A stretch of DNA of 64,000 bases from Styela clava. Its lineage: Eukaryota. This document shows, piece after piece, positions 35,598 through 58,624 of this stretch. Position 1 is the stretch's first letter, and every line of letters starts with the position of its first letter. The DNA is taken from positions 13,454,001 through 13,518,000 of the forward strand of contig NC_135254.1 in assembly GCF_964204865.1 (NCBI RefSeq), read 5' to 3'. Position numbers and translations under genes: made by a program. The notes beneath the pieces are model-generated. The model made no database searches and had not been told where the DNA came from. It saw only the letters and a list, made by a program, of their open reading frames with translations.

Positions 35598-37349
35598 TTA
35601 CCAATGGCTCTTGTAGTTGAATTTAGCTTTGACAAGATATCTTGCTCTGATTTGAGCAACATCATAAACAATATACTCATTGTACATCAGGTATCTATTG
35701 GTATTATCAGAAACAGCTTTAGGTTTTCCTAGTGGTGCGAGAGTTCCACAATCCATAGTGTGATAGCCTTGTGGATCCGGTTCTTCGCGTCCCAATCCTT
35801 TAGTACTATGCTTTCCTTTCGGTAATTTGTTTGCATCGTAGTCTGCATGAGTTTTGTCATTTGTGTTGCCAAGAGCGACTTCGCATAGAAGTAGAAAACC
35901 AGATGGTTGACGGTGGTTTGCATGGCAGTAATTTGCAGATTTAGAAATCATGTCTGCAAAATAGACTCCTTTGCCAAACATATATCCTGTTGAAGGGGCT
36001 TCAGGTGGAGCAATTCTCAGACCTTGTTTTAATATTCCACACCAATTAGTCAAACGAGATCCATGCCACAGTAGCATTCTATTCCCGATGTCTTTCTTGA
36101 ATCTCTGCTCCTCACCCTCTCTCTCAACCTTGTATACATTTTCTAGATCAAGAGCATACTGATTATGAGTGGAACCATGTGAATTACTGACATACGTCTT
36201 TACCATTTTATATTCATCATGGGTTTTATCCAAGGGTTCAAGCTTACAGTCAAGAGATTGATAATGAAGATCTTTAATGTTAACATCATCAGTTTTATCA
36301 TCATCTTCATCCATCATTTGTATTGCAATTTGGATGTCACTAAGAGCTTCTAGTAGTTGAATCTTCAATTTCAGCTGAGCAGGAGTTCTGATCAAAGGTG
36401 GAACTTTCATGCCAAAGTCGTGAGGAATTCTTGTGTAAAATTCACTGCATGCATCAGCTAACTCACGGCCATATTTATTTTCTTGATGGCATTTTTCTAT
36501 TTTTTTCAAGGTCTCATATCCTGCTTTTATCTGCTTGCTTGTTAATTTTCCTAGTGGTGCTTTTTTGACATCAAATTCTAATTCTTTTACACAAGCTTCG
36601 AATTCTTTCACATCAAAAATAAGATCGATGACTTCTTGAAGACGCTTGTCCAATTTTGATTCAACTTCTTCTCGTTTCTTTTTCTTCTCATCATCAACTT
36701 TCTTTTTGTCATCTTTCGTGTCCTCCCCATAATCCATTTCAAGTAAATCATATTTTCCTGGTATTTTTATGAAAGAGGGTGTATTCCATATATTCCCTGT
36801 TTTGTCACGAAATTTTTTCTCAAATGTAGTCTTGGCCGCATCAAGATTACCTCCATGGCGTTTAATAGCTGTGCCAGCAATTTTTCCTACTCTACCCCAT
36901 CTAAACCATGTCACATATTGCGGTTGAGTATCTTGCTTCAGTATTTGTAAAATATAGTATTTATTGTTGTTGAAACCAATATTTGTTTGGTTCAACATTG
37001 CATTGTATATCGAATTTTGCGTTTGATCAATATAAACATGATATCCAGAGGAACATTCTGCACAATGTTCATCTACTGGAACAGACCCAGAAAATGTAAG
37101 CTTTTTTATATCTGCTTTTTCCTCTGAAGAAGATGCTTTCGAATCTGGTTCTTGTTTGACTTTTGTATTTTCCTTTTTGACCTTAACATCAGGTTTAACA
37201 GTTGCAGTATTTTTAGTCTTTTTTCCCTTACCAGCAGATTGTTTTGCATCGTCATTCGGATCATCCTTCTTGGAATTATCATCATTTTTACCTCTTTTTG
37301 GTCTAGATGAAGCTACAGCTTGTTTTGCTTGCCTTTTTCTAGGTGGCAT
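35598..37349 (-). CDS. PARP2: Poly(ADP-ribose) polymerase 2 (basic N-terminus, WGR, helical and catalytic domains), single coding exon, 583 aa
   Basis: WGR domain (MLNQTNIGFNNNKYY..WFRWGRVG), regulatory domain (KKAPLGKLT..FYTRIPHDFG) and catalytic H-Y-E triad (LLWHGSRLTNW, GKGVYFAD, YNEYIVYD). No zinc fingers or BRCT domain. The motifs read as PARP2 rather than PARP1 or PARP3. Confidence 0.93.
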   Translation of the reverse strand: MPPRKRQAKQAVASSRPKRGKNDDNSKKDDPNDDAKQSAGKGKKTKNTATVKPDVKVKKENTKVKQEPDSKASSSEEKADIKKLTFSGSVPVDEHCAECSSGYHVYIDQTQNSIYNAMLNQTNIGFNNNKYYILQILKQDTQPQYVTWFRWGRVGKIAGTAIKRHGGNLDAAKTTFEKKFRDKTGNIWNTPSFIKIPGKYDLLEMDYGEDTKDDKKKVDDEKKKKREEVESKLDKRLQEVIDLIFDVKEFEACVKELEFDVKKAPLGKLTSKQIKAGYETLKKIEKCHQENKYGRELADACSEFYTRIPHDFGMKVPPLIRTPAQLKLKIQLLEALSDIQIAIQMMDEDDDKTDDVNIKDLHYQSLDCKLEPLDKTHDEYKMVKTYVSNSHGSTHNQYALDLENVYKVEREGEEQRFKKDIGNRMLLWHGSRLTNWCGILKQGLRIAPPEAPSTGYMFGKGVYFADMISKSANYCHANHRQPSGFLLLCEVALGNTNDKTHADYDANKLPKGKHSTKGLGREEPDPQGYHTMDCGTLAPLGKPKAVSDNTNRYLMYNEYIVYDVAQIRARYLVKAKFNYKSHW

Positions 37350-38580
37350 TTTTAGGGTGCAATTTATTTTGTTGTTTGATCTACATATACAGCTATAATA
37401 CGATATCAGGATATAAATTCAATATTCAGTTTTAACAGATTTTCCATTCAATTCTTTATCATTCAACACATTATTATGACCCTTATTATTAATTATAAGG
37501 TTATATCAATTCATAAAATATTGCATATTTTCCATTGGGGGTGCCAACTTTGAACTTGTTTGAAATTGTTTCACTGCTTATATAAGCTTTTCCAAAGTAA
37601 TACAGTCATTAATTGATATATACTTTGACCCGTTACCTATGGAGTATCAGCGAAAACAGTGCAATTGCAGAATTGGCATAATCAAAGCCATCTATGGTAT
37701 AAAGAGGACATAAAATTACAGAGTATAAAAGACAGATAGGGGTTTCACATCTCATAGAAAATAGTCATAAGAGAATTAGGCTATTTTATTGCAGGATTAC
37801 TGTTTACAGGTTTAAATTTAATTTTAAATAAACTAATACAGTATCATATTATATTAAATTTTTGCAAAGGCAAAACCCTAACAGTATGATTTACAACACA
37901 TAGTCTACTGGTGGTACTGGATAATGGCAACTAAAAAGCATCTCAGGTTTGTAGTGCAGCATTATCTCAGTACCTTGTGATAATGAAAAACTGACCTCAC
38001 TCTTGACCGTTTGAATGCCTTATCCCTAAATTGTCATTCTTTTACACCCTGCAGGTGCTTTTTTTCAGCATGCTGTCATGATAAAAAAAATAAACTTCTG
38101 ATTCTAAATGAAGGGATCTTGAGGCAAATTATCTAAAACTTCACCAACAATGAACATAAATGGACCGGGATAAATAGACTATGTAAATCCTCCTTCTATT
38201 CCAGTATTCCTACCTTCTGCGGACAAATAGGTGCTATTTGGATAATTCAATAGGTAGGAAAGTTACTCCTATGTCTGTATATGTACCGGCTCTTACTAGA
38301 CTACCGATACGGTATCTGCAAACAAAGCGGCATACCTCAATCCCCGTAGCAACAATGATTTGAAAAGCGTTTAACGCACGGTACGGTTGAAATATTAGAA
38401 TATTTATTGGGACGCGGTAGGGCTCTTACTACTTAATGAATAGAGCGCAGAAGAGAGGGAAAGAGCGCAAAACAGCGCAGAAGAGATGGAAACATTTTTC
38501 TTTCATTATTTATTAGCGTCCGTGAAATTTTAAACAATTTGATGGGAAACAGTATACAGTGGTAGGGAATGATCACGAGT

Positions 38581-38703: not shown

Positions 38704-41004
38704 TTTGAAAATGGCTACGGACGTTTCCCCGACCCTTCACCCAAAAAAAATCTGTACGAACGAAAGAAGTGGCTGAGCGACTGCATAAATTGCAATTGTT
38801 ACGTCATTGCTGATTGGTCATTGTTACGGACATTAAAATGAAATCGATGAGAAACATCCATTTAACCGTAAATATGTACTACTACAGATTTACCGACAAT
38901 ATCTCGTTTGTAAGCGAAACAACATTATTTCGTACGCTCCGATGTAAGTTTGAATATTGAATGATGGGTAGTTCTGGGTGAAACATATTAAAATTATTTG
39001 AACCTCCACTTTGTATATATTCGGTATTCCATTTGCGATGACAAATATCAGACAACAAAAATTTAGCCTCTATTCCTCCAATGCCTATGAGTTTGGAGAA
39101 GTGGTAGCTAGCTTAGTTAGTACATCTACATGCTCATTTCCAGGAATGTCCTGATGCCCGGGAATCCACCTTTTGTTTCACTGTTGCGATAATATGGGAG
39201 TATGTAGTTATGATGTTAATGACAAAGTCTTCGGATAAACATGATCGGGCCGAGTCATGTTGGTTGGGAAAAATATGCCTCATGTTGATCTTGTTATTTC
39301 TTCCCTGAAAAGAGCCAATACATTTATACACAATACCCAACTATGGCACGAATCTTATAAAGAAGTTCATCCCTCAAAACCATGTTTCGTAATAGTGATA
39401 AATAAATGAATAGACAATTATTATTATTTAATACGGAATGCATGCACAAAACCTGCTGGCCTAAAACACAAATGTGTGGCGTTATAGGGCTTGTTCGGCA
39501 ATGACTTGTATACGTCACTGTGCAAGCGGAGAATATCATCAGTAGTAGGCAATGACTAACATACCGGTAGTAGGTTACGGCACGCCTTCCACGACGAAAA
39601 AACCTGGTCATACAGATATATTTTGTTAAAAAATAGGTCGATAAGATTATGGATCTGTTGCTGGCTTATTAGATTTATGGATAGGAGTGTTTCCGGGAAG
39701 ACGGAATATCGCCAGAAAGCCATATGTTGGTAAAAGATTCAAAGGAAATTTTAGAGCATGAGGAGGAATGTGATTGGGCATTGGATATCCTATCGTCCTG
39801 GCCAGTAAAAGGTGGTTTCATGGGTTTCAAGGTTGTTTTTAACTCCGCCATAGTAAAAAGAGAGTCGAGAACTTAATCTTGTCTGGGAGATGGTTTGGCT
39901 ATTTCCTTGGTCAAATTGACTTCTTGCTATCGAGATTTAAAGTTTGTGTCATAGTTTTCCGAACTTGAAACAGCTGCAAGCGTTGTGGCAAGAACATTGA
40001 AAATATCATATTCGGTTACAAATTTCGGATGATCTAATTGCGAGCATTGTATTCCAGAATTAAATCCTAGTCTACAAAATGCCTTCACCATAGACCATAC
40101 TTGATCCAGCTTAGTGTTATTATCAACGAAGTCACAGTATTCTCTTCGAGAATCGCGTTTGGCTTTTAATATAGTTTTCCTAATATAAGATATACAACTT
40201 TTAAACTAATTTATATCTTGTATACTGATTGTTCTTCTCATCTTCAAGTAAGCTGAACGTACTGCCTTTTCGTGCAAGACTTATTCCACACAGGGACGCT
40301 ATTTTTGGTATGAGGTTGGAACACAGAGTGGACTTGGCTAATTAAACTCGAACATGTGCATGCAATTTTTTCCAATCTGCTTATTCATATTCCCATTTGG
40401 GTATGTGAACATTCGATTTGTGAGTGAATTCATTAATCCCTATACGAACCATGCAAAGTTCACTTTATAAAAAGACGTCTACAGCCGATGTTTTGCACTT
40501 TGTCAAAAAATGAAATCGTCCCGTGTGAAATCAGCATTTGGCGTAATATAAATATTGGTGAATTTGATTTTGTTAACTTAGTATAAGTTTATTTCGACTC
40601 CATAATCAGCATAACAATAAAATGATTGGTAAAAAAAATATATAAAAACTGATTATGAAATCGGGAGAGCAAACAAAACCTTAGATAAGGTTTAAAACGT
40701 ACAGAATGTATACAATATGGAAGGTTTTGCCAAGCAGAAGTGGTACGTGTTCACTCACCTAAAATAATGGAAATATTTCACACACGCACCCACACACACA
40801 ACCATACAGAAGTTATAAATTACATACGGGTAGTTAAGAAAAAATAAATAAAAATTACTTGCCACACCATATTAATAAATTTATAACGTTTGCCTTATAA
40901 CTTTTATGAAAAATATATTGCCAAGCTGATTATAGTTGGAGTCAATTGCCAAAAATGCCCAACCAAAGTTGCCAGAATTAGGTGCATGAAGAGGTGGGCT
41001 AGAT

Positions 41005-43397
41005 CAGTGATTTTCAACCGGTGTTCCGCGAGAGACCTCCAGGTGTTCCGCGAAATATTGCCTTTTCGAAGTATTATGACGTCATTCGAATAATATAAAT
41101 AGAGTCGATTTGAAAACGGCGAGTCAGAGTTTTGGAAAGTCGGTATAAACAAGAGAGCTATGCTCAAATATATGGACACGTAGAGTCACATAATTTTGAT
41201 GACGTCATAGCGAAAAAAAAAGTAATAGCCTTCTGGAGAAAATTTTTATCTTTAACCACTAAAAATTTCAAAGCAATTGGTCCAGTATTCGAAGAGAAAA
41301 GCGACTTTTTAAAAACGTGTCAAGCGGTACTCAGTTAGCAGTCAGGCAGCATCTTACCTGTACACTGTAGGCCATATACGGTAATTGATCACAGAACAGT
41401 TGTTCCCTTGCAAATTTTATGTTGTTTACACTTTAGGACAGATAATTGATCACAGAACAATTCTTCCCTTTCAAATTTTATGTTGTTTCCAGTAGACTCT
41501 CATCAAAATAAACAAATATAGTAGGCTACAAGTGCTACAACGCTTGCATTACTGCACTGGTAGGACCGTGAAAGAATAAGGTACGGTAATTTCATTGTGG
41601 TAAGACACCGGTACCGGCACCAGTACCAGTATCGTACTTACGTACTGAGCTACCAGTACCGGTTAGCAGTCAGCCAGCATCTTACCTGTACACTGTAGGC
41701 CATATACGGTAATTGATCACAGAACAGTTGTTCCCTTGCAAATTTTATGTTGTTTACACTTTAGGACAGATAATTGATCACAGAACAATTCTTCCCTTTC
41801 AAATTTTATGTTGTTTCCAGTAGACTCTCATCAAAATAAACAAATATAGTAGGCTACAAGTGCTACAACGCTTGCATTACTGCACTGGTGGGACCGTGAA
41901 AGAATAAGTTACGGTAATTTCATTGTGGTAAGACACCGGCACCAGTACCAGTATCGTACTTACGTACTGAGCTACCAGTACCGGTACCGAACCTGTAGGT
42001 CTGATATTCCGTTCCGCATACGATAGGCTATAAAACTTGCATTGCAGCATTAGTAATACCGCGGAAGGAATAAGTCAATTTCACTGCGTTACGGTACCTG
42101 TATGGCAACTTACCAGTACCGACCTACAGTAGCTGTAGTACTGAGCAAGACAATCGATCGCGAAACCGCTTGAAATAAGTGTAAAACAGTGTTCCCATGA
42201 GTAAAAATAAATACCGCGAAATTTTGTATGAAATATCATATCTCATAGGATTCATATAAAATTTAAGAATAAACAAAAGTAATAGCCTTCTAGCGAAAAA
42301 ATTAATCTTTAACCACTGAAAATTTCAAAGCAATTGGTCCAGTATTCGAAGAGAAAAGCGACTTTTTAAAAACGTGTCAAAGAACAAGAACAAGAACAAG
42401 AACAACAACAACAACATAATATTGAAACGATCGTTATGTCCACTACGTGTCCAAAAACTTGTAACCAGATAAGAAATGACAGGCCATATTCCCTTTTAAT
42501 AGATTTTTATCTCAGCGTGTATTTTTAGTGATCCATTCCATTCTTGACCAAATAATGTTTCGAAAATGTGAACATTATACTCGACCATGAATGATGTCAT
42601 CATCGGAGTTGATTACATTCGTTGCATTTCGAAGCTTTTCTTGCAGTAATAATTAGGGCGTGGCATCATCAAAATCGTCAAGTGAAGTGTTGAATTTGCA
42701 AATTCCGTAAATAACATTGTGAATTTGTAGGTAACAATTTTAGCTATGATAATGGTCGCGGTATTGTTTTGTTGGAAAAGAAGTTATACCAAAATATGAA
42801 ACTTCGATCTCCGCCGATCGGCAAGAATTAATACTTGCGCACAAGAACAAAGGCGGTAATATGAAAACGTTCAGGGGGCAAAAAAGTAGCGATTATGACG
42901 AAATTAAACAGTAAAAATCGCTTTGCTGCCAATTTTCAATGTTTTTATTAATTTCCAAATCGACCTCCGACCTTCTGGACTCCTGTTGTGTATAAAAAAA
43001 AACGCGAGAAATCGAGAGCCGTTGAGAAAGAGCTGCGTGTTTGTCTCTCCTCGATTACAGAACAAATATTTGAAATTAATCGAAACAGACCCAAATATTA
43101 CACTAAAATACCATTTCTGTTTCTAGCTACCGCAATCATAGTATTCATAAGCAAACTTGCAAAAACATATATTTGTACCTTACCGTCGCTCTTGTAGCTC
43201 TGAATCGGAATGTCTCACGTCTTTTCCTAAAGTTGACAAGCAATATTATTGATTTCGGTATTTTATTTTCATGCCAAAATTATCGACGTCCGTTAATTGC
43301 ATAATATAGTTTATTTCCAAAAATTTCGTTTGGTGTTCCGCCACAATTTCAGATTAAAAAAAGTGTTCCGCGGTACAAAAAAAGTTGAAAATCACTG
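41005..43397 (+). mobile_element. Non-autonomous hAT (Buster/Charlie-type) transposon
   Basis: TIR CAGTGATTTTCAAC / GTTGAAAATCACTG; 8-bp TSD GGCTAGAT/GGCTAGAC; subterminal GTGTTCCGC repeats; transposase C-terminal remnant (CIKK..RNR / AVEKELRVCLSSI) at about 42920-43060. Confidence 0.9.
41148..42454 (-). mobile_element. Helentron-associated non-autonomous element (HINE/DINE-1-like), copy 1
   Basis: Subterminal IR TGGACACGTAG/CTACGTGTCCA, a terminal GAGC-N3-GCTC hairpin, (AACAAG)n(AAC)n microsatellite, an internal tandem duplication of about 330 bp, and no TSD. Nested in the hAT element. Confidence 0.75.
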
Positions 43398-45466
43398 GGC
43401 TAGACCACTTCATTCCCCAAACTAGAGCCTATTATTGCAAAATTATGGTCCAGATTGTATAAGTATTTAATTAAAGGTACAAGTAATAGTATAAGTAATT
43501 ATAATTAATTAAGGTAGGACAACGGGGAATAGGAATATGTTGGTTACCAAGGTCATAAGTAAAGTTTTTTTCGATCCTAGATATTGACTTCTGCAAGGAC
43601 AAAGGAATTAGGATTGTTATTTCACAGGATCATTTCTTCATTTACTCAATGTAGGCTAATTGTTGTCAATTCAAATTTATCATAGATGAGACATCAGACT
43701 GCCAATTTTGATGATGTAGACACCCTTTATATTCAATAAGCTAGCCATTGAATTGGTCATCACCAACGACCTGAAAAACAGAAAATAAATCTGCGAGTAG
43801 AATATTCAAGGGTTACATATTAGGAAATAACACTCACTAGTCACTACCCTACACTTTTGTTGAGAAGAAATTATTATTTTGAGTAAATATTGATCATTAG
43901 TTATTTATTTTTAAAACGCAAGTTGAAAGACCTGAGTTGAATTCTGGTTGGGACACAGGGCAAATAATCTTCGCAAACCATGCAAGAACTCTCAAACCAC
44001 ACTAACCATTTGTATGTTGGCATTCACGTTAACTTCACAGCAGAACCTTCACCTAGGATAAAATTTTGTATACACACAAGACAAATCATGGAATACCACA
44101 GCAAATTAAAATGAAGGGGAGAATCCAATATATCTCGACTGGTCGCCTAATTACAGTAATAGGTACAGGGGTTAAATTATACCTTCTACAACCCTCACTA
44201 AGGAACACACCACTCAAATAGAAATAAAAGATTATGCATGTGGAATATCAGAAACCCAAAAAAAACATGCACATGCAGATATCAGAATATGAGCAGCCAT
44301 ATGCGGAAGAATCTTATGCTATGCATGCTATAGAACAAAATAAAGAGTTGGCTAGAATGCGAAACAAAACAGATGTGGAGAGCTTAGCAGCTTGTTCAAA
44401 AATAATAAGCAATTCTAGAGACAATAACAATATTATGGCTTTTATAGATTGTGGTGTTATTAACTCAATTTCGCGAATGGCGAAGGATTTTGGATACATA
44501 TTTTTACTCCGCCACTACAAACGCCCCTTCTTTCGTAATAATGTGTAACCGTACAGTGTTGGCCTATATCTGGCAATAAGATGGGGTTCTTGAAGTATAA
44601 TCGTAAATATATACTATTATAATTATTCTGTTATTCATTTTTTGTATATATCGTTCAAATTCGTATAATTTCTGGCAGATGCCTCTGCAGTTCCATTGTA
44701 ATAAAAAGCTAATTGTTTTAATATTAGTCATCATCTTCGATGAGTTAGGGCGAAAGCAACGACTAACATACCGGTACGCGAAAGTGATTGCTGCAGAGTG
44801 AAGACCATTGAACTGAAATTTCATTTACGGGTCACCGGTTATCGTTATGGGATCGAGGATAAGGGTGTTTCTTGACCTCTCCTTACCAAAATACCACTGA
44901 TTGACTGCAAGGCAATGGATTTTATTTTTCGTGAGATCCAAAACAACGCGCTGCATGAAAATGTTTAAGTAGGCAAGAGCGAGTAAGATCTAATACTTGA
45001 ATAATATATAATGTGTCAGTCACTACAGCACTAGAAGATTACTGAAGTGTATATTTCTTTCACCAAATCTCTGGTTTTGTGCCATGCTGTTCCGTAAGGC
45101 TGTACGGTACCGAACCGACAGCCGCAGTGCATCTAATGGTGCGTGATTACGATAGTCGGTAGGCCTACCGTACTTGTAAATCCAACAATTTCGGTACTTC
45201 TGAGGAAGATCAAAAGGATTATGCGTTCCGTCGGGACAATGCAACCAGTGTGTAATCGAAAGCAAAGTTATTTGTAGAGTTTTGGCCAGTTGTGTCCAAA
45301 AAATATGCACATTGATTTATAGCAGTTGAAATAATTTTTTTTGAAAACTTTGTGAATCTGTGGCATCAGCAGAACCGAAATTATGGAAATTGTCGTATAT
45401 CAAATTAAAAGCGAAGCACAAAATCGAATTCTTTTCTGAAAGTCAAATTTGGTTATTATATCAGTA

Positions 45467-50907: not shown

Positions 50908-52738
50908 ATGGCCGAAATGTGGCTCTGCTTCCCTTGTTGCATGTCAAATGATACAAGTTCTAATGTAAGTAATGCTTTTTTCTAATTCCAAATTGTCCTA
51001 GCTTAACAGAATCAGGAAGTAAATAATATAGCTGGTCAATTATTAAGGTGAATATCACCTCAAAGTAGTCTTGAATTTTGTGCCATTTACTGGTTCATTT
51101 TTGGGTATCTTGCAATAGTATTGTATAGTATTGAAAATATTTATCCATTTGCGGTGAAACATAAAATGCTTATTTAAGTTTGGTTTGTTTTATAAATACT
51201 ATTTTTTTTTGGTACACGCCCAAAATTCAGATTGTTTAATTGCCTGTTAACCGAAAAAAAAAATGATATGTTTTACATTGTTGTCAAAACATAATTCTGT
51301 TATGTATTATTTGTTACTAGTTACTGATGGTGAAGTAAGGTTATTTATGTACAAATAACTACACTGGTATATTCTTAATAAGAACGAGAACCCTTATCAA
51401 CTATGTTAATTCTAATTCATTTAAATTGATTATGACAACATGGTTTTACCACACAACAACCTTACATAGGTTTATTTAAGAACCGGTCACCCCTATCGTT
51501 TGTCTCATCATGCGCACATTATTTTAATCTTGCACATTTCACATGACGTTATTTACTTGATATCCAGTAGGCAGGGCAACGTATTAGCCTTCTACTAGAC
51601 TACTTTATATTTCCGACTGATAAATGCAAAATTTTGTACTACCGGCTTACTAAATCGATGATTATATTATTTGACCAATTGAAGCTGTTTACTTTTGAAA
51701 TATGCTTCATACATTAAATTCTGAATCCTTAGATATTGTTTGCCCAGTCCATTATAACATTTTTTCATACGTATATGCTATATAATTTGTGTTTTCATTC
51801 AGAAGAGGAGACCAAGGCGGAAAAAAATAGATCCAAGTATGATAGGAGCACCACAAAATTTTGTTCATTTAAATCACATAGGCTCTGGAGAGCCCACAGG
51901 TTCAGATGTAAGTGTATCTTGTCATTGTAGTATTTTTTCCACTAAGGGTTTTTAATGTGGTGTCCCTTTGACAAGTCAAATATCATTGCTTTACTCCTTT
52001 ATTTTGCTAGTAGCAGTAAAATAGTGAAACTTGGTATTTCTATTTCTTATAACTTGTTTATGAAGTGAGGCGTGTTTGTCTATAGGGAATTCTCTAAGTA
52101 CTATTATTGTCAACTTGTTAATAAGTCTGGTAAAAATGGTGTTCACCTAATAGAAGAGTTTGTATGTGCAAATTGAATTTTGTGTGCAAAATGCAGTACC
52201 TTTGAATATAATATACTGTCTTTATAAATAATATATAGAAAAAGGATGAAAGACTTTATATTCTAATTTTTATAGTCGCTAGTCGCTATCTCTGCTCCTA
52301 TTCAGGAAATGACAGGTCAAATATTATAAACTGCAGGTTGTTGTTGAAGTCGTTTAATACTATAGGGAGTATATGGTGTCTATGAGGTTCTAAAAATTTT
52401 CCAAATTGCAAAGGGAATTTATCGATACCTTATTGTTTTGGCCCTCACAGATGTATTAAATAAAGAAAAAATACTTAAACAATCACTGATTAAAAAACAA
52501 CAAACCTGGTTGAGATATACAGAGAATTGACTTCATAACAAAATTGAAACTGTAAAGTGACTTTATGGACACCCTGTATATGTATGTGTTCAACTAAAAC
52601 ATTTTGTTTCGTCCTCAGTTGTAATATTATAAAATATTTTAGATGCAAGATCATATGCAAAGTAAAGGCGGATATGAAGAAAAATCAGATGTTAATGTTC
52701 AAAGGAAATTAGATGATGTTCGGCCTGAAGGATCCTAG
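50908..52738 (+). CDS. CDC42SE2: CDC42 small effector (SPEC/CDC42SE family), 85 aa, 3 coding exons
   Basis: Exons 50908-50964 (MAEMWLCFPCCMSNDTSSN), 51803-51907 (KRRPRRKKIDPSMIGAPQNFVHLNHIGSGEPTGSD, a CRIB motif) and 52643-52738 (MQDHMQSKGGYEEKSDVNVQRKLDDVRPEGS*), joined by phase-0 GT-AG introns. The WxCFxCC, CRIB and MQSKGGY hallmarks are recognised. It may be the pro-ortholog of CDC42SE1/2. Confidence 0.93.
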
Positions 52739-57347: not shown

Positions 57348-58624
57348 TTGGACACGTAGTGGACATAACGATCGTTTCAATATTATGTTGTTGTTGTTCT
57401 TGTTCTTTGACACGTTTTTAAAAAGTCGCTTTTCTCTTCGAATACTGGGCCAATTGCTTTGAAATTTTCAGTGGTTAAAGAATAATTTTTTCGCTAGAAG
57501 GCTATTACTTTTGTTTATTCTTAAATTTTATATGAATCCTATGAGATATGATATTTCATACAAAATTTCGCGGTATTTATTTTTACTCATGGGAACACTG
57601 TTTTACACTTATTTCAAGCGGTTTCGCGATCGATTGTCTTGCTCAATACTACAGCTACTGTAGGTCGGTACTGGTAAGTTGCCATACCGGTACCGTAACG
57701 CAGTGAAATTGACTTATTCCTTCCGCGGTATTACTAATGCTGCAATGCAAGTTTTATAGCCTATCGTATGCGGAACGGAATATCAGACCTACAGGTTCGG
57801 TACCGGTAGCTCAGTACGTAAGTACGATACTGGTACTGGTACCGGTACCGGTGTCTTACCACAATGAAATTACCGTAACTTATTCTTTCACGGTCCTACC
57901 AGTGCAGTAATGCAAGCGTTGTAGCACTTGTAGCCTACTATATTTGTTTATTTTGATGAGAGTCTACTGGAAACAACATAAAATTTGAAAGGGAAGAATT
58001 GTTCTGTGATCAATTATCTGTCCTAAAGTGTAAACAACATAAAATTTGCAAGGGAACAACTGTTCTGTGACCAATTACCGTATATGGCCTACAGTGTACA
58101 GGTAAGATGCTGGCTGACTGCTAACCGGTACTGGTAGCTCAGTACGATACTGGTACTGGTGCCGGTACCGGTGTCTTACCACAATGAAATTACCGTAACT
58201 TATTCTTTCACGGTCCTACCAGTGCAGTAATGCAAGCGTTGTAGCACTTGTAGCCTACTATATTTGTTTATTTTGATGAGAGTCTACTGGAAACAACATA
58301 AAATTTGAAAGGGAAGAATTGTTCTGTGATCAATTATCTGTCCTAAAGTGTAAACAACATAAAATTTGCAAGGGAACAACTGTTCTGTGATCGATTACCG
58401 TATATGGTGTACAGGTAAGATGCTGCCTGACTGCTAACTCAGTACCGCTTGACACGTTTTTAAAAAGTCGCTTTTCTCTTCGAATACTGGACCGATTGCT
58501 TTGAAATTTTTATTGGTTAAAGATAAAAATTTTCTCCAGAAGGTTATTACTTTTTTTTTCGCTATGACGTCATCAAAATTATGTGACTCTACGTGTCCAT
58601 ATATTTGAGCATAGCTCTCTTGTT
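57348..58624 (+). mobile_element. HINE/DINE-1-like element, copy 2 (inverted relative to 41148-42454)
   Basis: Near-identical reverse complement of 41148-42454, with the same subTIRs, hairpin GAGCATAGCTC and internal duplication. Confidence 0.8.

What the first reader, a model, noticed from the sequence alone, without database searches (positions are those of the whole stretch)
44749..44784. Second independent copy of the same micro-insert (site 2)
Seen: (G)GCGAAAG-[CAACGACTAACATACCGGTA]-(C)GCGAAAG, a 7-bp exact (8-bp with one mismatch) duplication; 20 of 21 nt match site 1 while the flanks are unrelated. Inference: the extra GTA is what annealing two 17-nt overhangs through their terminal CG would leave (…TAC-CG-GTA…), as with microhomology joins in P footprints. 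It lies near the putative CDC42SE promoter.
Basis: partly seen in the sequence, partly recalled or inferred. Interest (0 to 1): 0.7.

Follow-up and report, generated by a model that had tools for sequence, protein, structure and literature searches.

The report
One-armed P-transposon excision scars
This 17-letter insert between two copies of an 8-letter target is one of several hundred in the genome and is likely the scar left when a P-type jumping gene cut itself out; unlike the scars of two other P families in the same genome it keeps only one of the two ends, which would mean that this family cuts or releases its two ends unequally.

Summary
Confirmed and genome-wide. The shared unit is 17 nt (44757-44773), not 20-21: 465 exact copies, control 0. 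Of the first 100, 69 are independent and 65 of them show a target duplication; empty paralogues carry one 8-mer. Targets form a 14-bp P-like palindrome. The CA end is fixed, the other junction varies (13-17 nt kept, deletions, templated inserts): a repair scar, most likely of a P-type transposon with the 17-nt staggered cut. The surprise: 0 of 156 scars keep 4 or more nt of a second end, and no two-armed form exists, whereas two P families with known parents in this genome leave ordinary two-armed scars (14 of 15 for family A). The parent element was not found. The scan noted two-armed P scars in other genomes before; I found no one-armed family in its notes or in nine paper searches.

The parts
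44749..44756 (+). Site 2, upstream copy of the 8-bp target; T at position -3 (44746) fits the family's target palindrome
44757..44773 (+). Site 2, the 17-nt arm, identical to the genome-wide consensus; inferred outer 17 nt of one end of a P-type element
44774..44776 (+). Site 2, junction insertion of 3 nt (4 nt if the changed base at 44777 is counted); repair-added, template undecided
44777..44784 (+). Site 2, downstream copy of the target (7 of 8 identical); A at +3 (44787) fits the palindrome
39542..39549 (+). Site 1, upstream copy of an 8-bp target (T at -3)
39550..39566 (+). Site 1, the same 17-nt arm with one CpG transition; the commonest (17+0) scar type
39567..39574 (+).
   Evidence: an X5 contig covers 39389-39579 with no difference

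Best explanation
The 17-nt insert between two copies of an 8-bp target is likely the end-joining scar of an excised P-superfamily transposon that likely left a 17-nt tail on one flank but only a 0-2-nt stub on the other. Steps: (1) shown: insertion added one extra 8-mer at a 14-bp palindromic target; (2) inferred from P biochemistry and from two control families here: excision cut one end 17 nt inside; (3) shown: the second end contributes at most 1-3 nt, usually nothing, and deletions run into that side; inferred: it is cut near-flush; (4) inferred: the tail's last G pairs with the first C available on the other flank, giving 17 + full target or 17 + target minus a G; a trimmed tail gives the 13-16-nt class; slippage synthesis gives the inserts, among them site 2's 3-4 nt. 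About 0.85 for 'P-type repair scar', about 0.5 for the whole chain including the near-flush cut.
For: 465 exact copies, control 0. Unbiased first 100: 69 independent, 44 = 17 + full 8-mer, 13 = target shortened with the lost base a G, 3 shortened otherwise, 5 with an insert, 4 without duplication. 11 independent sites in repeats have empty paralogues with a single 8-mer (131 contexts tested in 1.41 Mb). Target motif from 84 sites: T at -3 in 70, A at +3 in 56, core G-T-Y-N-N-R-A-C; the fly P target is also a 14-bp palindrome with most information at its ends (PMC2577343). A shorter class exists (218 against control 35), with a fixed CA junction and a variable far junction. Family A (5,428 bp, 834-aa frame with five P/THAP9 Pfam domains) leaves 17+17 scars, so the 17-nt cut works in this genome; 14 of 15 family A scars keep 4 or more nt of the second arm against 0 of 156 here (p = 1e-19). 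Family E leaves two-armed scars too, including a perfect 34-bp palindrome, so palindromes are not purged. 17 of 29 junction extras end in G and 6 in TG, like a stub of a ...TG end (some of these sites were hand-picked). 22 of 27 seven-bp duplications lack a G. Clustering (8 of 69 sites have a neighbour within 1 kb in the list, 0.11 expected) and same-target doubles (5 sites) fit local hopping.
Against: No parent: about 339 of 465 exact copies were seen with their downstream sequence and none is an element end; 40 regions of 9.9 kb around P-transposase hits do not carry the 17-mer as a terminus; 52 copies without a duplication share no downstream sequence. Without the parent, the second end's sequence and cut are unseen, and a single-strand exonuclease trimming a 17-nt tail to blunt would give the same mode at zero. 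No P element with unequal cuts was found in the papers read (both fly ends are cut at 17, PMC7776569). No empty allele of site 1 or 2 was seen in other runs (low power). The last G could also come from the second end (16+1). Five 7-bp duplications are not explained by G pairing.
Confidence: 0.5

Rival explanations
1. P-type scar with ordinary 17/17 cleavage, but one tail is always lost: either the two tails overlap fully, held by a G17:C1 pair at each nick, or the end released first is trimmed to blunt by a single-strand exonuclease before joining.
For: This 17-mer starts with C and ends with G, so the geometry exists, whereas the ends of families A and E finish in T and C; G-dependent junctions are common; fly P ends are cleaved one after the other (PMC7776569).
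Against: Families A and E are joined mostly tip to tip even without pairing, so some 34-bp or 32-bp products, or stubs of 4-16 nt, should remain; 0 of 156 and 0 genome-wide. The 2-bp CG register (17 + 3 nt of the other end) is not seen as a clean junction. If the second end had a different sequence, a second 17-mer family should appear; none recurs in 632 kb of neighbourhood that holds 173 contexts of this family.
Confidence: 0.25
2. The 17-mer is what was inserted: a P transposase integrates a free or clipped 17-nt transferred strand, or an element is re-cut before the gap at one end has been filled, so no long element ever sat repaired at these sites.
For: Hundreds of scars and no parent, whereas families A and E keep both elements and scars; sharp upper limit at 17; repeated additions at the same target.
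Against: No such reaction appears in the passages read; the junction spectrum (trimming, deletions, templated inserts) is that of double-strand-break repair; a low-copy parent may simply be absent from this haplotype or lie among the ~22 unique copies that I estimate were not seen.
Confidence: 0.1
3. One reading: two identical 17-nt tails annealed through their terminal CG and synthesis added the inverted three bases.
For: The three bases after the arm at site 2 are the exact inverse of the preceding ones; one more site shows the same (L159); fly tails anneal at terminal dinucleotides (PMC2895639 Table 1).
Against: No completed product of this route in the genome; 2 of 143 sites is within chance (about 0.5 expected among 30 non-simple junctions); direct tail repeats of 5-7 nt occur in 3 sites, and site 2 parses equally as G + partial tail repeat + target.
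Confidence: 0.05
4. Severely 5'-truncated retro-insertions or retroposed small RNA, read on the opposite strand (fixed 3' end, variable 5' junction).
For: One fixed and one variable junction.
Against: No copy extends beyond 17 nt with shared sequence; the duplication is 8 bp (sometimes 7) at a palindromic target with -3/+3 preference, the mark of a dimeric DDE transposase; no A-rich tail.
Confidence: 0.05
5. Footprint of a hAT element (also 8-bp duplications, GT...AC-like targets).
For: 8-bp duplication; hAT-like frames occur in the genome.
Against: From established knowledge (recalled, not tested): hAT excision hairpins the flanks and leaves no element sequence, so it cannot leave 13-17 nt of an end.
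Confidence: 0.02

Closest known systems
Drosophila melanogaster P element and its end-joining products (PMC7776569 and PMC2577343, passages; PMC2895639, passages with Tables 1-3; PMC5466332, passages and section 9)
   Same: 8-bp duplication, 14-bp palindromic target, CA start, 17-nt arm, trimmed arms, microhomology and templated-insert junctions, local clustering, re-use of a target beside an end; the arm shares the word TAACATA with the fly tail printed in PMC5466332 (positions 8-14 against 11-17; a lead, not tested).
   Different: Fly junctions are mostly two-armed or collapsed on a microhomology; no 17+0 junction stands in the tables seen (a 13+G junction does, 3 of 68). Here one arm is kept and the other is absent in all 156 duplication-bounded cases. 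Target ends are T/A at -3/+3 here, A/T in the fly.
P families A and E of the same genome (L063, L124; found here)
   Same: 8-bp duplications, CA ends, scars of up to 17 nt per arm, shared hotspots (L390, L121); family E's end starts CAA and resembles the 17-mer.
   Different: They keep full-length or deleted elements and leave two-armed scars (14 of 15; all 10 independent family E scars end in the reverse arm).
Zebrafish Pdre2/THAP9 and other chordate P-like elements (PMC10983969, passages; Ciona P elements only as cited there and in PMC7776569)
   Same: Chordate P-like elements with short inverted repeats and 8-bp duplications; ends cleaved asynchronously.
   Different: No cut position or footprint series is given in the passages seen.
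Galileo solo-TIR copies (PMC3573991, passages)
   Same: P-superfamily relics with one end only.
   Different: Those are TIRs of hundreds of bases defined by a missing partner, in a 7-bp-duplication family; not 17-nt scars closed by an 8-bp duplication.
Two-armed P-type scars noted by this scan in other genomes (AI notes, unchecked)
   Same: Short end-derived inserts with 8-bp duplications read as P excision scars.
   Different: All seven notes describe palindromic or end-to-end scars of 20-38 bp; none describes a one-armed family.

Membership tests
P-superfamily excision footprint | 8-bp target-site duplication | tested here: met
   44 of 69 independent sites full 8 bp, 16 shortened, 5 with insert; empty paralogues with one copy at 11 sites
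P-superfamily excision footprint | [quoted passage not shown] | tested here: met
   84 sites: T at -3 in 70, A at +3 in 56, GTYNNRAC-like core; fly motif in PMC2577343
P-superfamily excision footprint | Retained arm starts with CA and stops at 17 nt | tested here: met
   spacer 17 in 83 and 16 in 35 of 156; no shared extension; family A control 17+17
P-superfamily excision footprint | Repair-type variable junction | tested here: met
   13-16-nt class, G microhomology, templated inserts, flank deletions
P-superfamily excision footprint | Both flanks receive a 17-nt tail (two-armed products) | tested here: not met
   0 genome-wide; 0 of 156 with 4 or more nt, against 14 of 15 in family A
P-superfamily excision footprint | Arm identical to the end of an element that encodes or is moved by a P/THAP9 transposase | tested here: inconclusive
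   not found at 40 transposase regions nor among about 339 of 465 copies; about 126 unseen; one haplotype only
P-superfamily excision footprint | Cleavage positions and GTP dependence of the transposase | not testable with these tools
   needs the parent and an in vitro assay
hAT footprint | No element sequence left at the donor site (feature recalled) | tested here: not met
   13-17 nt of a constant foreign sequence is left
Non-LTR retro-insertion | Variable duplication length, longer family members, simple-sequence tail (features recalled) | tested here: not met
   fixed 8 (7) bp, palindromic target, no extension beyond 17
MITE / micro-transposon with inverted ends | Terminal inverted repeats at both ends of the unit | tested here: not met
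   the unit begins CA and ends CG; no reverse arm

The most novel reading that the evidence does not exclude
A chordate P-type transposase cuts its two ends asymmetrically, 17 nt inside one end and nearly flush at the other, and has written several hundred one-armed scars across a genome from which the element itself has vanished; or, more radically, it inserts the 17-nt end piece alone.
Probability: 0.5. Interest if true: 0.7.

Novelty: new variant of a known kind. Interest (0 to 1): 0.52.

Why it matters
[quoted passage not shown] One genome holds natural repair series of three P-type families under the same host machinery: two give textbook 17+17 scars, which extends the 17-nt cut to an invertebrate chordate, and one gives only 17+0. 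That contrast points to a transposon-side determinant of second-strand cleavage or end release, and the parent, once found, makes it directly testable. The scars also map the targets of a family that repeat annotation cannot see. The single site in the window has no shown function.

Tried and rejected
Five copies with a shared extension, two of them inverted 7.45 kb apart, looked like a parent; they are one scar inside a repeat carried by Gypsy-like copies and amplified later. A multi-copy class (31 of the first 100) is one scar inside another repeat. P families A, B, C, D, E, F, G, H do not carry the 17-mer as an end within the 9.9-kb regions fetched; ends were resolved only for A and E (C on one side). 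A copy 4.7 kb from a transposase hit (L080) has no matching element end. Inward-facing pairs (L028, L137, L240, L383) are separate scars. Palindrome purging as the cause of one-armedness: rejected by family E. Second 17-mer family from another end: none in 1.04 Mb or 632 kb of neighbourhood. Metagenome scan: 22 hits, none with a duplication at 13-19 nt, chance. Reads: no RNA holder listed on record; X1 and X4 carry the site 2 insert, X5 and X18 do not bridge it; X5 reaches 13 nt past the site 1 arm without difference, RNA-like runs do not cover it; no empty allele seen, power low. Papers not held: so the fly germline footprint studies of Staveley 1995 and Gloor 2000 are recalled only and not used as evidence. 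Paper searches for a one-armed or tunicate P footprint listed none; subscription journals (e.g. the Ciona P paper) are not searched. The script stopped with an error after its counts for this family; the rest was run.

Full report
Observation. The sequence is as described: an 8-mer at 44749-44756, the insert, and the 8-mer again at 44777-44784 with its first base changed. At site 1 the duplication is exact, 39542-39549 and 39567-39574. There the three bases GTA belong to the duplication, so the unit shared by both sites is the 17-mer at 44757-44773, and site 2 has 3-4 extra bases. Both sites have T three bases before and A three bases after the target.

Genome-wide census. The own genome (377 Mb) holds 465 exact copies, the reversed pattern none. 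All of the first 100 listed were fetched and classified: 31 are one scar amplified inside a repeat, 69 are independent. Of these, 44 are 17 nt plus a full 8-bp duplication (34 exact, 10 with one mismatch), 13 have the second copy shortened by 1-3 bases with a G as the last base lost, 3 are shortened otherwise, 5 have an insert and 4 have no clear duplication; random positions give 51 of 29,400. This extrapolates to about 320 independent full-length copies. A search for the first 12 nt not followed by G17 gave 218 against 35 for the control; the 70 loci fetched from its 100 listed places (the first 30, then 40 chosen for 13 or more matching bases) show 13-16 nt kept or a changed last base, an exact junction at the CA end and a variable far junction with deletions and templated inserts. 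For 11 independent sites inside repeats, paralogues in the fetched DNA carry a single 8-mer and no insert (131 contexts tested; 3 further rows were artefacts of tandem doubles). The target is a 14-bp palindrome: in 84 sites T at -3 in 70 and A at +3 in 56, with a G-T-Y-N-N-R-A-C core. Copies cluster: 8 of the 69 have a neighbour within 1 kb (one search list), 0.11 expected, and five sites carry two arms at one thrice-repeated target, always added on the CA side, which fits the note that a P end restores the target motif (PMC2577343, passages).

What kind of thing. An 8-bp duplication, a 14-bp palindromic target, a CA start and a limit of 17 nt are P-element traits; P transposase cuts 17 nt inside each end and leaves 3' tails (PMC7776569, passages). 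The genome has P-type transposases (44 matches to PF21787). Family A is 5,428 bp with an 834-aa frame carrying five P/THAP9 Pfam domains; family E is 7,035 bp with 15-bp inverted ends. Searching their ends found their scars. Of 20 family A places chosen as non-element-like, 15 are bounded by a duplication; 14 keep 5-17 nt of the second arm and five are exactly 17+17. From 30 family E loci, 10 independent scars all end in the reverse arm, one a perfect 34-bp palindrome. So the 17-nt cut operates here, the host can join two tails, and palindromes persist.

The anomaly. The finding's family never has the second arm. A gapped search for two arms of 11 nt or more gave 0 (no positive control for the gap search itself). 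Among 217 independent sites inspected (not a random sample: enriched for odd junctions), 156 have a full duplication; the reverse arm contributes 0 nt in 139, 1 in 11, 2 in 5, 3 in 1 and 4 or more in none; against family A p = 1e-19. A second arm of different sequence would show as a common extension or as a second 17-mer family; neither was seen in about 339 of the 465 copies or in 632 kb of neighbourhood. In the fly tables seen, junctions are two-armed or collapsed and none is 17+0 (PMC2895639 Tables 1-3; PMC5466332 section 9).

Mechanism. Shown: insertion footprint geometry, one fixed and one repair-type junction, absence of the second arm, family specificity. Inferred: the element left a 17-nt tail on one flank and a stub of 0-2 nt on the other. 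In favour of a stub, 17 of 29 junction extras end in G and 6 in TG, and 13+G recurs (partly hand-picked); deletions run into the armless side. In favour of pairing by the last G, 22 of 27 seven-bp duplications lack a G (G is the first target base in 44 of 84), although five look like true 7-bp duplications. The main rival is a normal 17/17 cut with complete loss of one tail by full overlap on a G17:C1 pair or by exonuclease trimming; it predicts at least some tip-to-tip or intermediate products, and none was seen, but it cannot be excluded without the parent. Direct insertion of the 17-nt piece remains possible because no parent was found.

Site 2's extra bases. Of 143 independent full-length sites 113 are simple; of the other 30, two continue with the inverted three bases (site 2, L159), none further, and three repeat 5-7 nt of the tail directly. 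Site 2 is best called an ordinary repair insertion of undecided template.

Parent search, negative. Forty regions of 9.9 kb around transposase hits have no such end. A promising inverted pair was one scar in an amplified repeat. The 52 copies without a duplication share no downstream sequence. About 126 exact copies were not seen; by the proportions most belong to the amplified repeat and about 22 are unique. Other runs gave no empty or full allele, with little power.

Context. The window holds a PARP gene (35598-37418, minus) and a PBD exon at 51758-51955. Site 1 is about 1.8 kb upstream of the furthest PARP contig end; site 2's relation to a promoter was not established. Earlier notes call the organism a sea squirt (not tested here).

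Novelty. Two-armed P-type scars were noted by this scan in other genomes (seven notes, unchecked; two gave me PMC2895639). Nine paper searches listed no one-armed P scar family; subscription journals are outside the library, and no supplements were read. Galileo solo-TIRs (PMC3573991, passages) are a different thing; P elements with 3-bp inverted ends exist (PMC3698922, passages), so a parent with unlike ends is plausible; zebrafish Pdre2 ends are cleaved asynchronously (PMC10983969, passages). Verdict: real, a new variant of a known kind; the single site is ordinary, the family-wide asymmetry with in-genome controls is the finding. Interest 0.52.

Noticed in passing
G000 family A, e.g. L063:2570-7997; scars L271-L290: A young P family with dissimilar ends (about 96-99% identical copies, open frames of 822-834 aa) and clean 17+17 excision scars: direct evidence of a 17-nt staggered cut outside flies.
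   Followed up: yes
G000 family E, L124:1347-8381; A P family with 15-bp inverted ends, 637 end matches, many 2.5-kb deleted copies and two-armed scars of 21-47 bp, one of them amplified inside a repeat.
   Followed up: partly
L121:7915-8030 and L390:806: Different P-type families stack at one 8-bp target: a family C element end, a 17-mer scar and a third CA-start relic; a 17-mer scar abutting a family E scar.
   Followed up: partly
L142, L201 and 29 more of the first 100 hits: One scar lies inside a repeat that was later copied to roughly 140 places; another lies in a repeat of Gypsy-like copies (L151-L156), so scars are germline and predate these expansions.
   Followed up: partly
L008 and L224: Identical 17-mers sit at the same position of two repeat copies only 68% alike: possibly independent hits at one target.
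   Followed up: no
L080:154: A scar with a deleted far side lies just upstream of a CCAAT-like box and an ATG followed by a splice donor.
   Followed up: no
L151:172-9411: A 4.5-kb inverted duplication (97% identical) holding Gypsy-like and hAT-like pieces.
   Followed up: no
window 35598-37418 (-): PARP gene (WGR, regulatory, catalytic domains) in a single 606-aa frame, covered by RNA-like contigs up to 37756.
   Followed up: partly
window 41148-42454 and 57348-58624: Two copies of a ~1.3-kb repeat with internal 320-bp tandem units, in inverted orientation 15 kb apart, 98-99% identical.
   Followed up: no
G000 family B, L113:1997-8228: A 6.2-kb high-identity family with a weak P RNase H match whose aligned end reads ...CTATA rather than ...TG; not classified.
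   Followed up: no
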